Assembly (NCBI GenBank): GCA_937918905.1 | Contig: CAKZSH010000028.1 | Location: 59,139 to 123,138 of the forward strand | DNA: 64,000 nt | Source of the DNA: an uncultured Saprospiraceae bacterium | Lineage (GTDB): Bacteria > Bacteroidota > Bacteroidia > Chitinophagales > Saprospiraceae | Reading direction: 5' to 3' | Part shown: piece by piece, positions 5,654 to 61,070 of the stretch | Numbering within the stretch: the stretch's first letter is position 1 | How the letters are laid out: each line of letters starts with the position of its first letter | Made by a program: the position numbers and the translations under genes | The notes under the pieces: model-generated | Told to the model about the DNA's origin: nothing | The model's input: the letters and a program-made list of their open reading frames with translations, nothing else | The model's database searches: none

Positions 5654-5850
5654 TTAACAATATTCGTAATTATTCAGTATTGGGTGTACACGAGTCAAGG
5701 TTTGACTTCTCAAGTCAAGCCTTGACTTATAAGAACATCAATTATAAGTCAGGCTTTGACTTATAAGAACGTCAATTATAAGTCAAAGCCTGACTTTTTA
5801 AGTCAGACCTTGACTCGTGTACAGCCAATGTTGAATAGTTAACAATATTC
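5654..5850. repeat. Copy A of the AAGTCAR-N3-YTGACTT / TGTACACGAG inverted-repeat element (core 5685-5823), MITE-like
   Basis: Five 17-bp palindromic units lie between the termini tgtacacgagtcaagg and ccttgactcgtgtaca. The outer arms attattcagtattgg / ccaatgttgaatag also pair. A 12-bp direct repeat ttaacaatattc sits at both ends (5654-5665 and 5839-5850). Confidence 0.85.
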
Positions 5851-6759: not shown

Positions 6760-6972
6760 GTATGAGTGTATTTATGTATATGTTGTCGAAATAATAGTGA
6801 AAGCGTTTTTATGATCCTTAGCCATCAGATTTATATCCGACGGTCACAGAACAAAATACTACTGACCCGCTTTTTTGAGAGTCTCAAAATTATCAATAGT
6901 CTTTTGAATACACTCCATACCTCATAAATAATCATAATTATTTCGACAACATATACACCTACACACTCATAC
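6760..6972. repeat. Inverted repeat with ~36-bp arms and a ~140-nt loop
   Basis: gtatgagtgtatttatgtatatgttgtcgaaataat pairs with attatttcgacaacatatacacctacacactcatac. Confidence 0.8.
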
Positions 6973-16788: not shown

Positions 16789-16881
16789 GAAGTCAGGGTT
16801 TGACATGGAATGGGAAGTTTTGATTTATAGGAACTTCGGTTGAAGTCAGGGCTGACTTTGGAGTCAGACCCTGACTCGTGT
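16789..16881. repeat. Copy B (one-sided, truncated) of the AAGTCAR-N3-YTGACTT element
   Basis: Units gaagtcagggtttgaca, gaagtcagggctgactt and ggagtcagaccctgactcgtgt. The right terminus ctgactcgtgt is present but the left terminus is missing. Confidence 0.75.
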
Positions 16882-42704: not shown

Positions 42705-42730
42705 GGTTTTGGATTTAAGTTAATTCAATC

Positions 42731-42942
42731 ACACGAGTCAGGGTTTGACTTGAAAAGTCAAGCTCTGACTTCTATTGATGTTCTTGTAAGTTTGCTATTC
42801 TTTTAAGTTTGATGTTCCTGTAAGAACTTGTTTAGATTTTTTTCTTCGAGGCGAAAAAGCTAGGTTTTTCGCCCGATTAAAAAAGTTTAAAAGGGTTCTA
42901 AGTCAAAGCCTGACTTTGAAGTCAGACCTTGACTCGTGTACA
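42731..42942. repeat. Copy C of the AAGTCAR-N3-YTGACTT element
   Basis: Termini acacgagtcagggtttgactt and aagtcagaccttgactcgtgtaca. There is an internal hairpin ggcgaaaaa gctag gtttttcgcc. The flanks aattcaat / attgaatt also pair. Confidence 0.85.
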
Positions 42943-42956
42943 TTTAATATTGAATT

Positions 42957-45851
42957 TTATTTCTTCTCAAAAATTTCAAATTCTTTAGTTTCTACTTTGC
43001 CACCTTTTGCAATTTCGATGGTGTATTTTCCTGATCGTAGATACGTTTTTTTAGTGTCCGTATCTTTGATTTTTACTTTTTTATCTTTTAACTTTTTATT
43101 TAAAAATCGCTCGTAATTGCTTCGTTTTGAGTCGTTTATAGATAAGTCATATTCGACATGATTAATTCCTTGATGGGCATTATGATCTAATGCTTTTAAA
43201 ACATTTCCATCTTCATCTTTAATTTTAATGGTTGCATTGCCACTTGTTTTTGTAAAAAATGGAATTTCTATTTTAGGTTCAAAAGCATCTCTCCACGGAC
43301 TAGGTTTGCTTCCCCAACGGCTAGAGTAACGCACTTTTTTGACCTCAAAAATATGAACCATTTTGTCCATCAACTCCTCATCCAACTGTTGTAAGTGTGC
43401 TACATTTGCTTTGTAAAATGATCGACCATGAGTCCCTAAAACGATTTCTTTTTGAGTAGGATGAACCACAAAATCATGAACCGCTACCGCAGGTAAATCT
43501 TTGTTCATCAACATAAATGATTCTCCTTGGTTAAATGAAACATAAACTCCATGGTCGGTTCCCACGTAAAGAATGTCTTCATTTTCAGGATCTTCCTTGA
43601 TAACATTTACAGGTTCGAGTGGAAGGTCGAGACCAAGGCGTTTCCAACTTTTTCCATAGTCAGTAGATTGGTAAATATGCGATTCAAAATTGTCCCATCG
43701 ATACCCATTCAGGGCAATGTACACGGTGGCCTTATCAAACTTAGAGGCTTGGATTCTTGCTACCCAAAGGTCCTTGGGTAAACCTGCATTGAGGTTGTCC
43801 CAAGTGTTGCCACCATCTTTTGTGAGGTGTACCAAACCATCATCACTTCCAGTATAAATTAATCCAAATTTTAAAGGGGACTCATGAATTGCGGTGAGCG
43901 TTCCATAGGCAACATCTCCTTTTTGCCCCCCATTGGTTAAGTCTTTGGAGATGGCATCGAAGTCATCACCTTGATTCATACTTCGAAATAATTTATTGGC
44001 ACCCATGTATAAAATATCTTGATTGTGGATAGACAAATGAATGGGCGTTTGCCAGTTCCATCGAAGTGGTCGTTCTCCTAATTCATGTTTTGGGGTAATA
44101 TATTTACGGCGACCTGATTTTTGATTAATTCTAAAATAATTACCAAATTGATAACCCGTGTACACCGTGTTATTATCTCGTAAGTCAATGGCGACTTGCA
44201 TACCGTCGCCACCCATAATGGATTTGTAAGGGTATTGGCCTGAGTTGTGCCAAGCCTTGCTGCCTATTTTATAATTGCTTGACCCTACCCAAACACCGTT
44301 GTCTTGAAGACCTCCATAAATATTGTAAGGTTCTGCATTGTCTAATGCCACATAATAAAATTGACCAAGTGCAGGAGAGTTGCATTTGATCCATTCTTCG
44401 CCATCGTCGTAAGAAATATTGATTCCTCCATCATTTCCGATAATAATATGTTGCTCTCGATTTGGATTGACCCAACAAGCGTGGTGATCGACATGAACAT
44501 TATCTGCTCCAATCAATTTAAAAGTTTTTCCACCGTCATTCGAACGAATTGCTCTAAATCCCATGATGTAAATTTTATCAGGATTGTGTGGTGATACTCG
44601 AATGTTTCCAAAATAATAACCATAAGAATTGTAAACTTGATCGAGAAAACCTTCATGAGTTTTTTTCCAAACATTGCCTCCATCATTGGAACGATAAACT
44701 TCAGCTCCAATAACGGGTGTATCAAATAACAATGAATTTGCATCTTCCAAATACTCGACTAAAGCCAACGGGGTGATCTTATCTTTCTTTATCATTTTAG
44801 TCACTTTCTTAAAGGAATATTTTTTAGGAAAACGATTGTTAGATAAAAAGTCGCTTACTTTTTCTTTGTCTAATTTTAAAAAATCTGCATTTGACATATT
44901 TCTTAAATCATCTTTTGACAAACCTGCTTCAGGATCTTTTTTCTCTGGAGGTCGTCTAAAATAATTATCTAACAAAGCGTAAACTACTTCCTTTCCATCT
45001 TTCTCATAGAGTGCCAAGCCGATTCGTCCAACTCCTTCGCCCTGCGGAAAACGACTTTTTCCCATACTCACCACGCCCCAAGTTTTTCCACCATCAGTGC
45101 TTTTATAAATTTTAGAACCTTTGCCTGATTCTACAAAATTCCAGGCTCTCCGAGTTCGTTCCCAAGTAGCGGCGTAAAGGACATCAGGATTTTTTTGACT
45201 AACTACTAAGTCGATAGCACCCGCATTTTCATTTTCAAAAAGTGTACGTTCCCACGTGACTCCTCCATCTGAAGTTTTGTAGACTCCTCGATCTTCACTT
45301 GGAGAATAAAGTGCTCCTAATGTTGCGACCCATGCTACATCAGGATTGGTAGGATGTAACACTACTCTTCCAATATGATGAGATTCGGGTAATCCCATGT
45401 GTTGCCATGATTGACCATCATCCGTACTTTTAAAAATACCAACTCCTGAATAACTTGAACGTGAACTATTATTTTCACCTGTACCGACCCATATCACATT
45501 ATTTTTCCAATCGACTGCAATGTCTCCTATGGTCATCACAATTTCATTGTCAAATAAAGGGGTAAAAGTTGTTCCATTATTGATCGTTTTCCAAAGTCCG
45601 CCCGAAGCATATGCTACATAAAAATGAGTGGGATCATCAGGAGAAACATCCACATCAACTACACGCCCACTAAAAACTGTTGGTCCAACAGATTGAAATG
45701 GAATATTGGAAATCATGGATTTTTCTGCTAATGCCTTTCGCTTTTCATAACTAGCAATTCGATCTTTTGCACTTGTGGCAGGGTAGGGGTTTTGGGAAAA
45801 AGAAATTTGAAGAAAAGAAATAAGTCCAATGAATAGAAGTATCTTTCTCAT
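42957..45851 (-). CDS. Secreted sortilin/VPS10-like protein with BNR/Asp-box repeats (two beta-propellers)
   Basis: Multiple SxDxGxTW boxes (STDDGQSW, TSDGGVTW, STDGGKTW, SNDGGNVW, SNDGGKTF, TKDGGNTW, STDYGKSW). Signal peptide begins at the internal ATG 45851. Confidence 0.8.
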   Translation of the reverse strand: MRKILLFIGLISFLQISFSQNPYPATSAKDRIASYEKRKALAEKSMISNIPFQSVGPTVFSGRVVDVDVSPDDPTHFYVAYASGGLWKTINNGTTFTPLFDNEIVMTIGDIAVDWKNNVIWVGTGENNSSRSSYSGVGIFKSTDDGQSWQHMGLPESHHIGRVVLHPTNPDVAWVATLGALYSPSEDRGVYKTSDGGVTWERTLFENENAGAIDLVVSQKNPDVLYAATWERTRRAWNFVESGKGSKIYKSTDGGKTWGVVSMGKSRFPQGEGVGRIGLALYEKDGKEVVYALLDNYFRRPPEKKDPEAGLSKDDLRNMSNADFLKLDKEKVSDFLSNNRFPKKYSFKKVTKMIKKDKITPLALVEYLEDANSLLFDTPVIGAEVYRSNDGGNVWKKTHEGFLDQVYNSYGYYFGNIRVSPHNPDKIYIMGFRAIRSNDGGKTFKLIGADNVHVDHHACWVNPNREQHIIIGNDGGINISYDDGEEWIKCNSPALGQFYYVALDNAEPYNIYGGLQDNGVWVGSSNYKIGSKAWHNSGQYPYKSIMGGDGMQVAIDLRDNNTVYTGYQFGNYFRINQKSGRRKYITPKHELGERPLRWNWQTPIHLSIHNQDILYMGANKLFRSMNQGDDFDAISKDLTNGGQKGDVAYGTLTAIHESPLKFGLIYTGSDDGLVHLTKDGGNTWDNLNAGLPKDLWVARIQASKFDKATVYIALNGYRWDNFESHIYQSTDYGKSWKRLGLDLPLEPVNVIKEDPENEDILYVGTDHGVYVSFNQGESFMLMNKDLPAVAVHDFVVHPTQKEIVLGTHGRSFYKANVAHLQQLDEELMDKMVHIFEVKKVRYSSRWGSKPSPWRDAFEPKIEIPFFTKTSGNATIKIKDEDGNVLKALDHNAHQGINHVEYDLSINDSKRSNYERFLNKKLKDKKVKIKDTDTKKTYLRSGKYTIEIAKGGKVETKEFEIFEKK

Positions 45852-60755: not shown

Positions 60756-60811
60756 TTTTTTAGGAATGGTTTTATGAGATTTAAGATTTGCTGTACCTAT
60801 TCAGCATTGGC

Positions 60812-60915
60812 TGTATACGAGTCAAGGTCTGACTTTTTAAGTCAGGCTTTGACTTATGTTGATGTTCTTATAAGTCAAGGCTTGACTTGAAAAGTCAAAC
60901 CTTGACTTGTGTATA
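60812..60915. repeat. Copy D of the AAGTCAR-N3-YTGACTT element (shortest, 104 bp)
   Basis: Termini tgtatacgagtcaaggtctgactt and aagtcaaaccttgacttgtgtata, with four palindromic units. Confidence 0.85.
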
Positions 60916-61070
60916 GCGATCGTCGGATGTAAATCCGACTCTCTCGGACCTTTGCAAAACAAATTATTCGAAATAACTCAATAACCCAATAACTCATTAA
61001 CCAATTTCAAGATTTAATTTTTTTCAAAATTATACCCATCTTTTCCACTCTTTTATCGTATAATAGCTCT

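What the first reader, a model, noticed from the sequence alone, without database searches (positions are those of the whole stretch)
5654..5850. Dispersed element family built from 17-bp palindromic units AAGTCAR-N3-YTGACTT bounded by TGTACACGAG inverted termini
There are four copies in 64 kb: 5685-5823 (5 units), 16789-16881 (truncated, right end only), 42731-42942 (with ~120 bp of unrelated inner sequence) and 60812-60915 (4 units).

Each unit is itself a perfect or G-T-tolerant palindrome with 7-bp arms and a 3-nt centre. That is the geometry of a dimeric DNA-binding-protein site. The units on the two halves of an element also pair with each other.

Copy A is flanked by an exact 12-bp direct repeat, ttaacaatattc, which could be a target-site duplication. 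The other copies show no such duplication. No transposase is present in the window, so if the element is mobile it is non-autonomous.
Basis: seen in the sequence. Interest (0 to 1): 0.6.

Follow-up and report, generated by a model that had tools for sequence, protein, structure and literature searches.

The report
IS66-type miniature transposon with palindromic core
The repeats are real copies of a small gene-less jumping element (a MITE) that uses the end sequences of ISBst12/IS66-type insertion sequences and carries a four-hairpin palindromic core; it is an ordinary kind of selfish DNA, and its core also occurs without the transposon ends, which is not explained.

Summary
The 17-bp unit AAGTCAR-N3-YTGACTT occurs 14 times in the window against 0.09 expected. 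It occurs 258 times in this 5.5-Mb genome against 0-1 in each of 30 relatives.

The canonical element is 142 bp: a 26-bp terminal inverted repeat (TIR), GTAAYTATTCAGCATTGGCTGTACAC, then a 90-bp core of four units, then the second TIR. With these ends, 10 of 26 complete copies have perfect 8-bp target-site duplications (TSDs), against 1.2% for random pairing. Copy A's "12-bp repeat" is an 8-bp TSD (CAATATTC) plus 4 chance bases.

The TIR tip matches ISBst12-group (IS66-family) insertion sequences. These are published ISDge4 and a 16-copy, 1.5-kb IS in a sister genus whose end is GTAATTATTCAG with 8-bp TSDs. Two other MITE families in the same genome share this tip and the 8-bp TSDs.

So this is a non-autonomous ISBst12-type MITE, a new member of a known kind. 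This scan has reported the type in several other genomes. No cognate transposase was found.

Three points are unexplained:
- About a third of cores lack TIRs.
- The units are better conserved than the TIRs.
- A similar double hairpin occurs sporadically in other phyla.

The suggestion that the units are binding sites for a dimeric protein is neither supported nor excluded.

The parts
5658..5665 (.). Left 8-bp target-site duplication of copy A (CAATATTC)
   Evidence: It is identical to 5843-5850. 8/8 TSDs occur in 10 of 26 complete copies, against 1.2% for random pairing.
5666..5691 (+). Left 26-nt TIR of copy A (GTAATTATTCAGTATTGGGTGTACAC)
   Evidence: It matches the family TIR consensus. Its first 12 nt equal the left end of the ISBst12-type IS of G075 and resemble the ISDge4 TIRs.
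5692..5816 (.). Core of copy A: five 17-bp units. The canonical core has four; this one has an extra unit plus spacer from a 34-bp tandem duplication at 5712-5796.
   Evidence: Unit hits. Tandem repeat of period 34, 2.5 copies. Alignment to the 142-bp consensus.
5817..5842 (-). Right TIR of copy A, with its tip mutated from GTAA to TTAA
   Evidence: The reverse complement reads TTAACTATTCAACATTGGCTGTACAC.
5843..5850 (.). Right 8-bp target-site duplication of copy A (CAATATTC)
16790..16880 (.). Copy B: partial, diverged core of the GGG-type unit variant. It has no TIRs and no TSD.
42735..42935 (.). Copy C: core with units 1-2 and 3-4 separated by a nested ~128-bp insert that contains another repeat (…CTTGTTTAGATTTTTTTCTTCGAGGCGAAAAAGC…). 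The flanking arms (42710-42734 and 42936-42960) are decayed TIRs.
   Evidence: The inserted motif recurs at other cores.
60793..60818 (+). Left TIR of copy D (GTACCTATTCAGCATTGGCTGTATAC)
60819..60908 (.). Canonical 90-bp four-unit core of copy D
60909..60917 (-). Remnant of the right TIR of copy D (GTGTATAGC). The outer 17 nt are missing, so this copy is immobile and has no recognisable TSD.

Best explanation
This is a family of miniature inverted-repeat transposable elements (MITEs) with ISBst12-group (IS66-family) ends.

Structure. The canonical copy is 142 bp: a 26-nt TIR, a 90-bp palindromic core, and a second TIR. The core reads unit 1, linker, unit 2, 16-nt centre, unit 3, linker, unit 4.

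Shown:
- The element is multi-copy, almost exclusively intergenic, and confined to this species among the genomes searched.
- Complete copies are flanked by 8-bp duplications of AT-rich targets.
- The outer 12-13 nt of the TIR (GTAAYTRTTCAGC) equal the ends of autonomous single-ORF IS66-family elements.
- The same tip bounds other, unrelated MITE families in this genome.

Inferred:
- A DDE transposase of the ISBst12 type, supplied in trans, binds the tips and makes an 8-bp staggered cut at the target. It integrates the element by copy-and-paste, as reported for ISDge4.
- The sequence inside the tips (TTGGCTGTACAC plus the four-unit core) is cargo, not the transposase site.
- The core is a palindrome of palindromes. 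It evolves by slipped-strand duplication of 34-bp unit-plus-spacer blocks, by flip-flop inversion of its centre, by nested insertion of other small repeats, and by partial arm-to-arm homogenisation.

Open: the same core also exists without TIRs and without TSDs, at sharp CAC|GAGTCA…TGACTC|GTG boundaries. The core is therefore probably an older or independently spreading hairpin module, REPIN-like in layout, that the MITE captured. How the TIR-less copies spread is not known.
For: Abundance and specificity:
- 14 units in the window against 0.09 expected.
- 258 exact units in the genome against 0-1 in each of 30 relatives.
- The 131-nt element gave no BLAST hit in 30 relatives, including 9 congeners.

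Ends and TSD:
- The table of 89 bounded cores shows the 26-nt arm.
- Of 26 copies with both arms, 10 have 8/8 TSDs and 4 have 7/8. Random pairing gives 1.2% at 8/8, and the next 8 nt outward show no such signal.

IS66/ISBst12 link:
- ISDge4 has TIRs GTGACTACTCAGCA / GTAACTGCTCAGCA and an 8-bp direct repeat. It has a single ORF and moves by copy-and-paste (PMC12898284).
- G075, a genome of the same family but another genus, has 16 copies of a 1.53-kb IS. Its 482-aa ORF matches PF03050. Its ends are GTAATTATTCAGAG… / GTAACTGTTCAGAG…, and its 8-bp TSDs include CGAAAATC and AGAACTTC.
- A young MITE sub-lineage (C172, C203, C343; up to 98.6% identical) has the same GTGA/GTAA asymmetry as ISDge4.

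Same tip, other cargo:
- The 152/153-bp and 198/199-bp MITE families in this genome have perfect 8-bp TSDs.
- Further arm types with the same tip also occur.

Insertion at copy A: five of the congeners compared have only about 67-98 nt between folD and the conserved promoter block, where this genome has about 310 nt.

Location: 141 of 143 placeable copies are intergenic, and there is no orientation bias relative to the flanking genes.

Core dynamics:
- A 34-bp tandem duplication.
- The orientation of the centre is independent of arm type.
- Nested inserts.
- 31 concerted arm changes against 6 expected.
Against: - No transposase with matching ends was found in this genome. The single IS66-family gene (C213:10189-11730) has the TIR GTAAGTTCAAACTGATTTCA and is only 25% identical to the G075 enzyme. 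The assembly is 93% complete in 372 contigs, so an IS may be unassembled.
- The TIR pattern was not found in any other species' genome. It gave only chance hits in metagenome contigs.
- Of 89 bounded cores, 30 have no TIR and 29 have only one, yet their units are about 96-97% identical to consensus. Plain MITE decay does not explain this.
- In complete copies the units (95-99% conserved) are better conserved than the TIRs (85-90%).
- No filled-versus-empty polymorphism between strains could be examined.
Confidence: 0.85

Rival explanations
1. REP/REPIN-type element. On this reading each unit pair is a REP hairpin and the four-unit core is an inverted REP doublet. It would be mobilised as single-stranded DNA by a RAYT (Y1/HUH) transposase, and the TIRs would be incidental.
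For: - The core has the REPIN layout: two imperfect hairpins in inverted orientation around a short spacer, foldable as one long hairpin.
- About a third of cores have no TIR and no TSD, with sharp boundaries.
- The genome has two intact RAYT-like genes.
- REP dimers embedded in longer palindromes are described (PMC3733652).
Against: - No Y1 gene has units within 1.5 kb. The C125 gene is flanked by its own, different GTAG-containing inverted repeats.
- The units carry no GTAG or CGTC tag.
- Complete copies have 8-bp TSDs, which HUH transposition does not produce.
Confidence: 0.07
2. Host-function array of protein-binding sites. Each 17-bp palindrome would bind a dimeric DNA-binding protein, for example a nucleoid or regulatory protein, and the elements would be kept for that reason.
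For: - The AGTCA / TGACT half-sites are conserved while the 5-nt centre varies, both here and in look-alike hairpins of other phyla.
- The units are better conserved than the TIRs.
- The unit spacing of about 20-21 bp would put the sites on one face of the helix (inference).
Against: - The centres of neighbouring units are complementary to each other and co-vary (94 of 94 cases elsewhere; variant copies here). This points to base pairing, not to independent operators.
- The family is absent from all nine congeners searched, so it cannot serve a conserved host function.
- There is no enrichment at promoters: divergent gaps hold 18% of copies against 21-29% in the background.
- No candidate binding protein was identified.
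Confidence: 0.05
3. Structured RNA element: a transcription terminator, an mRNA stabiliser or a small RNA encoded by the repeat.
For: - The predicted hairpin is very stable (RNA dG -108 kcal/mol, z = -24).
- Copies are mildly enriched between convergent genes (25% against 15-18%).
- G·U-type asymmetries occur in each half.
Against: - No Rfam family matched at gathering score. Relaxed hits are generic miRNA-like hairpins far below threshold.
- There is no orientation bias relative to the flanking genes.
- The G·T asymmetry is mirror-symmetric, so neither strand is favoured.
- The element is nearly a perfect DNA palindrome, as expected of a foldback MITE.
Confidence: 0.03

Closest known systems
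ISBst12-group insertion sequences of the IS66 family (ISBst12, ISDge4; here also the 1.53-kb, 16-copy IS of genome G075)
   Same: The terminal sequence is shared: GTAAYTRTTCAGC here, against GTAACTGCTCAGCA / GTGACTACTCAGCA in ISDge4 and GTAATTATTCAGAG / GTAACTGTTCAGAG in G075. Also shared are the imperfect GTGA/GTAA pair of ends in one sub-lineage, the 8-bp target-site duplication and AT-rich targets.
   Different: The element has no transposase gene and is 142 bp rather than about 1.5 kb. Inside the 13-nt tip nothing resembles the IS. The only IS66-family transposase in this genome has a different TIR.
Bacterial MITEs with long foldback structure: Correia elements of Neisseria, ERIC/IRU of enterobacteria, RUP of pneumococcus, and BrickBuilt of Porphyromonas gingivalis (comparison from memory)
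   Same: All are small, non-coding, multi-copy and intergenic, with TIRs plus a TSD. The whole element folds into a hairpin, and the internal modules are repeated in variable numbers.
   Different: The TIR family and the TSD length differ (Correia elements duplicate TA). The core is built from four 17-bp quasi-palindromes, and it also circulates without TIRs.
REP / REPIN elements with RAYT transposases (PMC3733652)
   Same: The core looks like an inverted doublet of imperfect hairpins that can fold either separately or as one long stem. Some copies sit at the tip of longer, locus-specific palindromes.
   Different: There is no GTAG or CGTC tag. No RAYT gene is flanked by the units. TSDs are present on the complete copies.
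ISBst12/IS66-type MITEs reported earlier in this scan in other genomes (e1-4463162, e1-2567268, e1-2986815, e1-4571613 and others)
   Same: GTAA-type ends, 8-bp TSDs, a palindromic core, and a core motif that recurs in distant bacteria.
   Different: The host and the core sequence differ. Those are unchecked AI notes. Here only the ISDge4 citation was verified.

Membership tests
Bacterial MITE | Short, non-coding, multi-copy | tested here: met
   The canonical copy is 142 bp. There are 159 clusters of two or more units. Only spurious short ORFs overlap.
Bacterial MITE | Terminal inverted repeats | tested here: met
   26-nt TIRs are present on both sides in 30 of 89 bounded cores and on one side in 29.
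Bacterial MITE | Target-site duplication of fixed length | tested here: met
   The TSD is 8 bp. It is 8/8 in 10 of 26 copies and 7/8 in 4 of 26. Random pairing gives 1.2% at 8/8.
Bacterial MITE | Filled and empty sites among relatives or strains | tested here: inconclusive
   Congeners lack about 200-240 nt at the folD site, but they are only 76-81% identical, so the exact empty site cannot be read. Strain-level reads were unavailable.
IS66 family, ISBst12 group (as the source of the ends) | Ends starting 5'-GTAA (or GTGA) and resembling those of known members | tested here: met
   GTAAYTATTCAGCA matches the ISDge4 ends in 12-13 of 14 positions. It matches the left end of the G075 IS in 12 of 12.
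IS66 family, ISBst12 group (as the source of the ends) | 8-bp direct repeats on insertion | tested here: met
IS66 family, ISBst12 group (as the source of the ends) | A cognate single-ORF DDE_Tnp_IS66 transposase with the same ends in the same genome | tested here: not met
   The only PF03050 hit (C213) has the TIR GTAAGTTCAAACTG…. The assembly is incomplete, so absence is not shown.
REP/REPIN-RAYT system | Conserved GTAG or CGTC tag next to the hairpin | tested here: not met
   The unit flanks read CAC|GAGTCA. The criteria come from PMC3733652.
REP/REPIN-RAYT system | A RAYT gene flanked by the same repeats | tested here: not met
   There are four Y1 hits and none has units within 1.5 kb. The C125 gene carries different repeats.
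REP/REPIN-RAYT system | Inverted doublet of hairpins, without a TSD | tested here: inconclusive
   The doublet layout is met. A TSD is absent only in the TIR-less copies and present in the complete ones.
Known structured RNA family (Rfam) | A match at gathering score | tested here: not met

The most novel reading that the evidence does not exclude
The four-unit core may not be mere MITE stuffing. It could be a member of a separate class of double-hairpin modules (AGTCA-N5-TGACT, twice, with complementary N5) that spreads or arises independently of the ISBst12 ends.

Evidence that does not exclude this:
- TIR-less copies here have sharp boundaries and no TSD.
- The module sits at the tip of locus-specific palindromes.
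- 33-nt versions occur as dispersed repeats in MAGs of Bacteroidota, Chloroflexota, Ignavibacteria, Desulfobacterales and Hyphomicrobiales.

On this reading an unidentified hairpin-specific enzyme, or a templated palindrome-forming process, would propagate the module, and the MITE would be a secondary capture.
Probability: 0.3. Interest if true: 0.55.

Novelty: new member of a known kind. Interest (0 to 1): 0.3.

Why it matters
As a MITE it matters mainly for annotation.
- It accounts for about 150-190 intergenic hairpins in this genome and for many contig breaks in the short-read assemblies.
- It shows that an ISBst12-type transposase has recently been active on at least three cargo families in this lineage.

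The less ordinary points could show how small palindromic repeats originate and are picked up by transposon ends:
- a core that also circulates without ends;
- units that are better conserved than the TIRs;
- a sporadic cross-phylum look-alike.

All three rest on sequence patterns only.

Tried and rejected
- RAYT/REPIN mobilisation: Y1 genes exist, but none is flanked by the units.
- The outer arm as an independent palindromic repeat into which the core inserted: the arm almost never occurs without the core. Only 3 solo left arms and 1 solo right arm were found, none next to a transposase.
- A master IS carrying this TIR elsewhere: there were 0 hits in one genome per species and 6 chance hits in metagenome contigs.
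- A shared neighbouring gene around the cross-phylum 33-mers: none was found.
- GTAA-type TIRs around those 33-mers: not general. Only one Saprospiraceae MAG shows a nested GTAA-ended palindrome.
- An alternative TIR family for the TIR-less cores: none recurs, apart from one small AATCAAAATCAAAA arm type.
- TSDs at TIR-less cores: none at any symmetric offset.
- Strand bias relative to transcription: none.
- Rfam: nothing.
- Literature search on the AAGTCA/TGACTT motif: nothing relevant.
Logan contigs stop inside the element from both sides.
- Prevalence of the exact 33-mer in a 400-genome sample of the phylum: 0 of 400. The motif is therefore sporadic, not widespread.

Full report

Yes. All four loci contain the reported units. 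The pattern AAGTCAR-N3-YTGACTT, allowing one mismatch, hits 14 times in the window against 0.09 expected. None of 100 dinucleotide shuffles reaches that number.

The window lies on contig C28 of a 5.55-Mb, 34% G+C, 372-contig metagenome-assembled genome.

Genome-wide there are 258 exact units, and 541 with up to one mismatch. They fall into 159 clusters of at least two units. Each of 30 relatives, nine congeners among them, has 0-1 exact units, which is chance level. None has a BLAST match to the 131-nt element. The family is therefore abundant and, among the genomes searched, specific to this species.

**2. Anatomy**

I listed 89 cores with well-defined outer units together with their flanks.

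The modal complete element is 142 bp: a 26-nt TIR, a 90-bp core and a second 26-nt TIR. The core reads GAGTCA-N5-TGACTT, a 3-5-nt linker, AAGTCA-N5-TGACTT, a 16-nt centre (ATATTGATGTTCTTAT or its complement), and then the mirror image.

The consensus folds into a single 65-bp-stem hairpin. The DNA free energy is -65.6 kcal/mol (z = -20) and the RNA free energy is -108 kcal/mol.

Each half comes in two sequence types. Unit 1 can pair with unit 2 through G·T wobbles, or with unit 4 across the element. The asymmetry is mirror-symmetric, so neither strand is favoured.

The orientation of the 16-nt centre is independent of the arm types, which indicates flip-flop inversion. Longer copies arise in two ways:
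- Tandem duplication of a 34-bp unit-plus-spacer block. In copy A this lies at 5712-5796.
- Nested insertion of other small repeats, as in copy C.

**3. Target-site duplication**

With the corrected ends, 26 copies carry both arms. Of these, 10 have identical 8-mers immediately outside the arms and 4 more match at 7 of 8. Random pairing of left and right flanks gives 1.2% perfect matches. The next 8 nt outward show no such signal. The targets are AT-rich, for example AAAAAATC, TTTAAAAT and AATATTTA.

Copy A spans 5666-5842, with the TSD CAATATTC at 5658-5665 and 5843-5850. On the right side that 'ttaa' is the mutated tip of the TIR.

Window copies B, C and D lack TSDs because they are degenerate. 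B is a partial core, C has decayed arms and a nested insert, and D has a truncated right TIR.

**4. Which transposon family?**

Ends beginning GTAA combined with 8-bp duplications are the hallmark of the IS66 family. That rests on my own knowledge of the ISfinder tables.

ISDge4, of the ISBst12 group, has TIRs GTGACTACTCAGCA and GTAACTGCTCAGCA. It makes an 8-bp direct repeat, has a single transposase ORF and behaves as copy-and-paste. The MITE tips GTAACTATTCAGCA and GTGACTATTCAGCA differ from these at one or two positions. One young sub-lineage (C172, C203, C343; up to 98.6% identical) has the same GTGA/GTAA pair of unequal ends.

Independent evidence came from within the session:
- I searched the bacterial family with the genome's only IS66-family transposase.
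- This turned up a genome of another genus (G075) with 16 copies of a 1.53-kb IS.
- Its 482-aa ORF matches PF03050.
- Its ends read GTAATTATTCAGAG… and GTAACTGTTCAGAG….
- It is flanked by 8-bp TSDs (CGAAAATC and AGAACTTC).
- Its first 12 nt are identical to the MITE tip.

The same genome also carries other MITE families with the same 12-13-nt tip, unrelated interiors and perfect 8-bp TSDs:
- A 152/153-bp family, at C5:1981-2132 and C123:17114-17266.
- A 198/199-bp family, at C180:11109-11306 and C354:6409-6607.

Several further arm types with the same tip also occur. The tip is therefore the part shared with autonomous elements and across cargo types, and everything inside it is cargo.

**5. 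What is missing**

The genome's single IS66-family gene (C213:10189-11730, 514 aa) sits at a contig end. It has a different TIR, GTAAGTTCAAACTGATTTCA, and is only 25% identical to the G075 enzyme.

The MITE's TIR was not found in any other species' genome. In metagenome contigs it gave only chance hits. The cognate autonomous element is therefore unknown. It may be unassembled (93% completeness), lost, or the C213 enzyme may cross-mobilise.

**6. Context**

Of the 143 copies that can be placed, 141 are intergenic. By gap type they fall as follows:

| Gap type | Copies | Background, by gap length | Background, by gap number |
|---|---|---|---|
| Tandem genes | 57% | 56% | 61% |
| Convergent genes | 25% | 15% | 18% |
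| Divergent genes | 18% | 29% | 21% |

This is the usual depletion at promoters. Orientation is not correlated with the direction of the flanking genes. No Rfam family matches.

At the folD locus, five of the congeners compared have about 67-98 nt between folD and a conserved promoter block, where this genome has about 310 nt. This is consistent with insertion of the 185-bp element plus TSD. The species are only 76-81% identical, however, so the empty site cannot be read base by base.

Public short-read contigs stop inside the element from both sides.

**7. Rivals**

*REPIN/RAYT.* The core has the layout of an inverted REP doublet, and two RAYT-like genes exist. None is flanked by the units, and one carries its own GTAG-type repeats. 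The units have no GTAG or CGTC tag, and the complete copies have TSDs.

*Protein-binding array.* The half-sites AGTCA/TGACT are conserved. However, the 5-nt centres of neighbouring units are complementary and co-vary. The family is also absent from congeners. A nucleic-acid hairpin fits better than independent operators. Direct binding tests were not possible.

*Structured RNA.* There is no strand bias and no Rfam match.

**8. What remains odd**

(a) Of the 89 bounded cores, 30 have no recognisable TIR and 29 have only one. The boundary is always CAC|GAGTCA…TGACTC|GTG, no TSD appears at any offset, and the units are still about 96-97% identical to consensus (this figure is partly biased by how the cores were ascertained). 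Decay of complete MITEs does not explain this. The core seems to exist in its own right.

(b) In complete copies the units are 95-99% conserved, against 85-90% for the TIRs.

(c) A few TIR-less cores sit at the tip of long, locus-specific palindromes. One example is the pair of 41-nt arms at C213:5720. Relatives carry entirely different hairpins at that site. Arm changes are concerted about five times more often than independence predicts, 31 against 6, but one-sided changes dominate at 157.

(d) I scanned one genome per species for two adjacent units. The scan returned more than 89 loci in roughly 45 MAGs of Bacteroidales, Lentimicrobiaceae, Saprospiraceae, Roseivirga, Ignavibacteria, Chloroflexota, Desulfobacterales and Hyphomicrobiales.
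- All are 33-nt palindromes of the form AGTCA-N5-TGACTT-N-AAGTCA-N5'-TGACT, with N5' complementary to N5 (94 of 94, 54 of them perfect).
- They are mostly intergenic and multi-copy, with a genome-specific N5.
- They have no shared neighbouring gene.
- The motif is sporadic. None of 400 sampled genomes of the phylum has it.
- A short relative of it (AAGGTGACTYNRAGTCACCTT) occurs at 1-13 copies in seven of ten genomes of the genus.

Whether this resemblance reflects homology, horizontal spread or convergence is open. Earlier notes of this scan report similar 'cores shared with distant bacteria' for other ISBst12-type MITEs. Those notes are unchecked.

**9. Verdict**

This is a genuine, recently active, non-autonomous ISBst12/IS66-type MITE family, undescribed as far as the searched collections show, but of an ordinary kind. 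The DNA-binding-site idea is unsupported. Interest is low to moderate and rests on the independent life of the palindromic core.

Noticed in passing
G000 contigs C5:1981-2132, C123:17114-17266, C180:11109-11306, C354:6409-6607 (outside the window): Two further MITE families (152/153 bp and 198/199 bp) have the same GTAAYTRTTCAGC tips and perfect 8-bp TSDs but unrelated interiors. Other arm types with the same tip also occur. One of them, GTAATTGTTCAAATTTATTCATAAG…, often lies at contig ends.
   Followed up: partly
L012-L100 (other species' genomes): 33-nt palindromes of the form AGTCA-N5-TGACTT-N-AAGTCA-N5'-TGACT, with a co-varying, genome-specific N5, occur as dispersed intergenic repeats in MAGs of at least five phyla. 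One Chloroflexota bin has more than 20 loci. They are sporadic: 0 of 400 sampled genomes of the window's phylum have one.
   Followed up: partly
G000 e.g. C60:33091-33123, C130:3467-3499, C68:9950-9982; congeners G001 and G002 just after the folD stop: A small genus-wide family of roughly 33-nt hairpins, (A/T)YTCAYAAGGTGACTT-N-AAGTCACCTTRTGAR, often lies right after stop codons. There are 1-13 copies in 7 of 10 genomes of the genus.
   Followed up: partly
window 42772-42899 and G000 C14:33497-, C20:~6820-6850, C296:~5790-5828: Another small repeat (…ACCTGTTTAGATTTTTTTCTTCGAGRCGAAAAA…GCCCGATTAAAAAAGTTTAAA…) is found nested inside or beside cores. A second one (GTGTCWTGGGTCACAAAGTTATGACC…) also sits inside several cores.
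   Followed up: no
G000 C213:9463-11766 (L011 775-2478): A single-ORF IS66-family IS (514-aa transposase, TIR GTAAGTTCAAACTGATTTCA) ends exactly at the contig end. It is probably multi-copy or collapsed in the assembly.
   Followed up: partly
G000 C125:23922-24653 (L007 1327-2058): A RAYT-like Y1 transposase gene (158 aa) is bracketed by 36-40-nt inverted repeats that contain a GGTCTGTAAGACC hairpin and a GTAG motif. This is a REPtron-like unit unrelated to the finding.
   Followed up: no
Intergenic regions of congeners at the folD and C213:5720 loci (L102-L109, L145-L150): Orthologous spacers in sister species carry entirely different long nested palindromes, some of them wrapped around the terminator hairpin. 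Intergenic hairpins therefore turn over very fast in this genus.
   Followed up: partly
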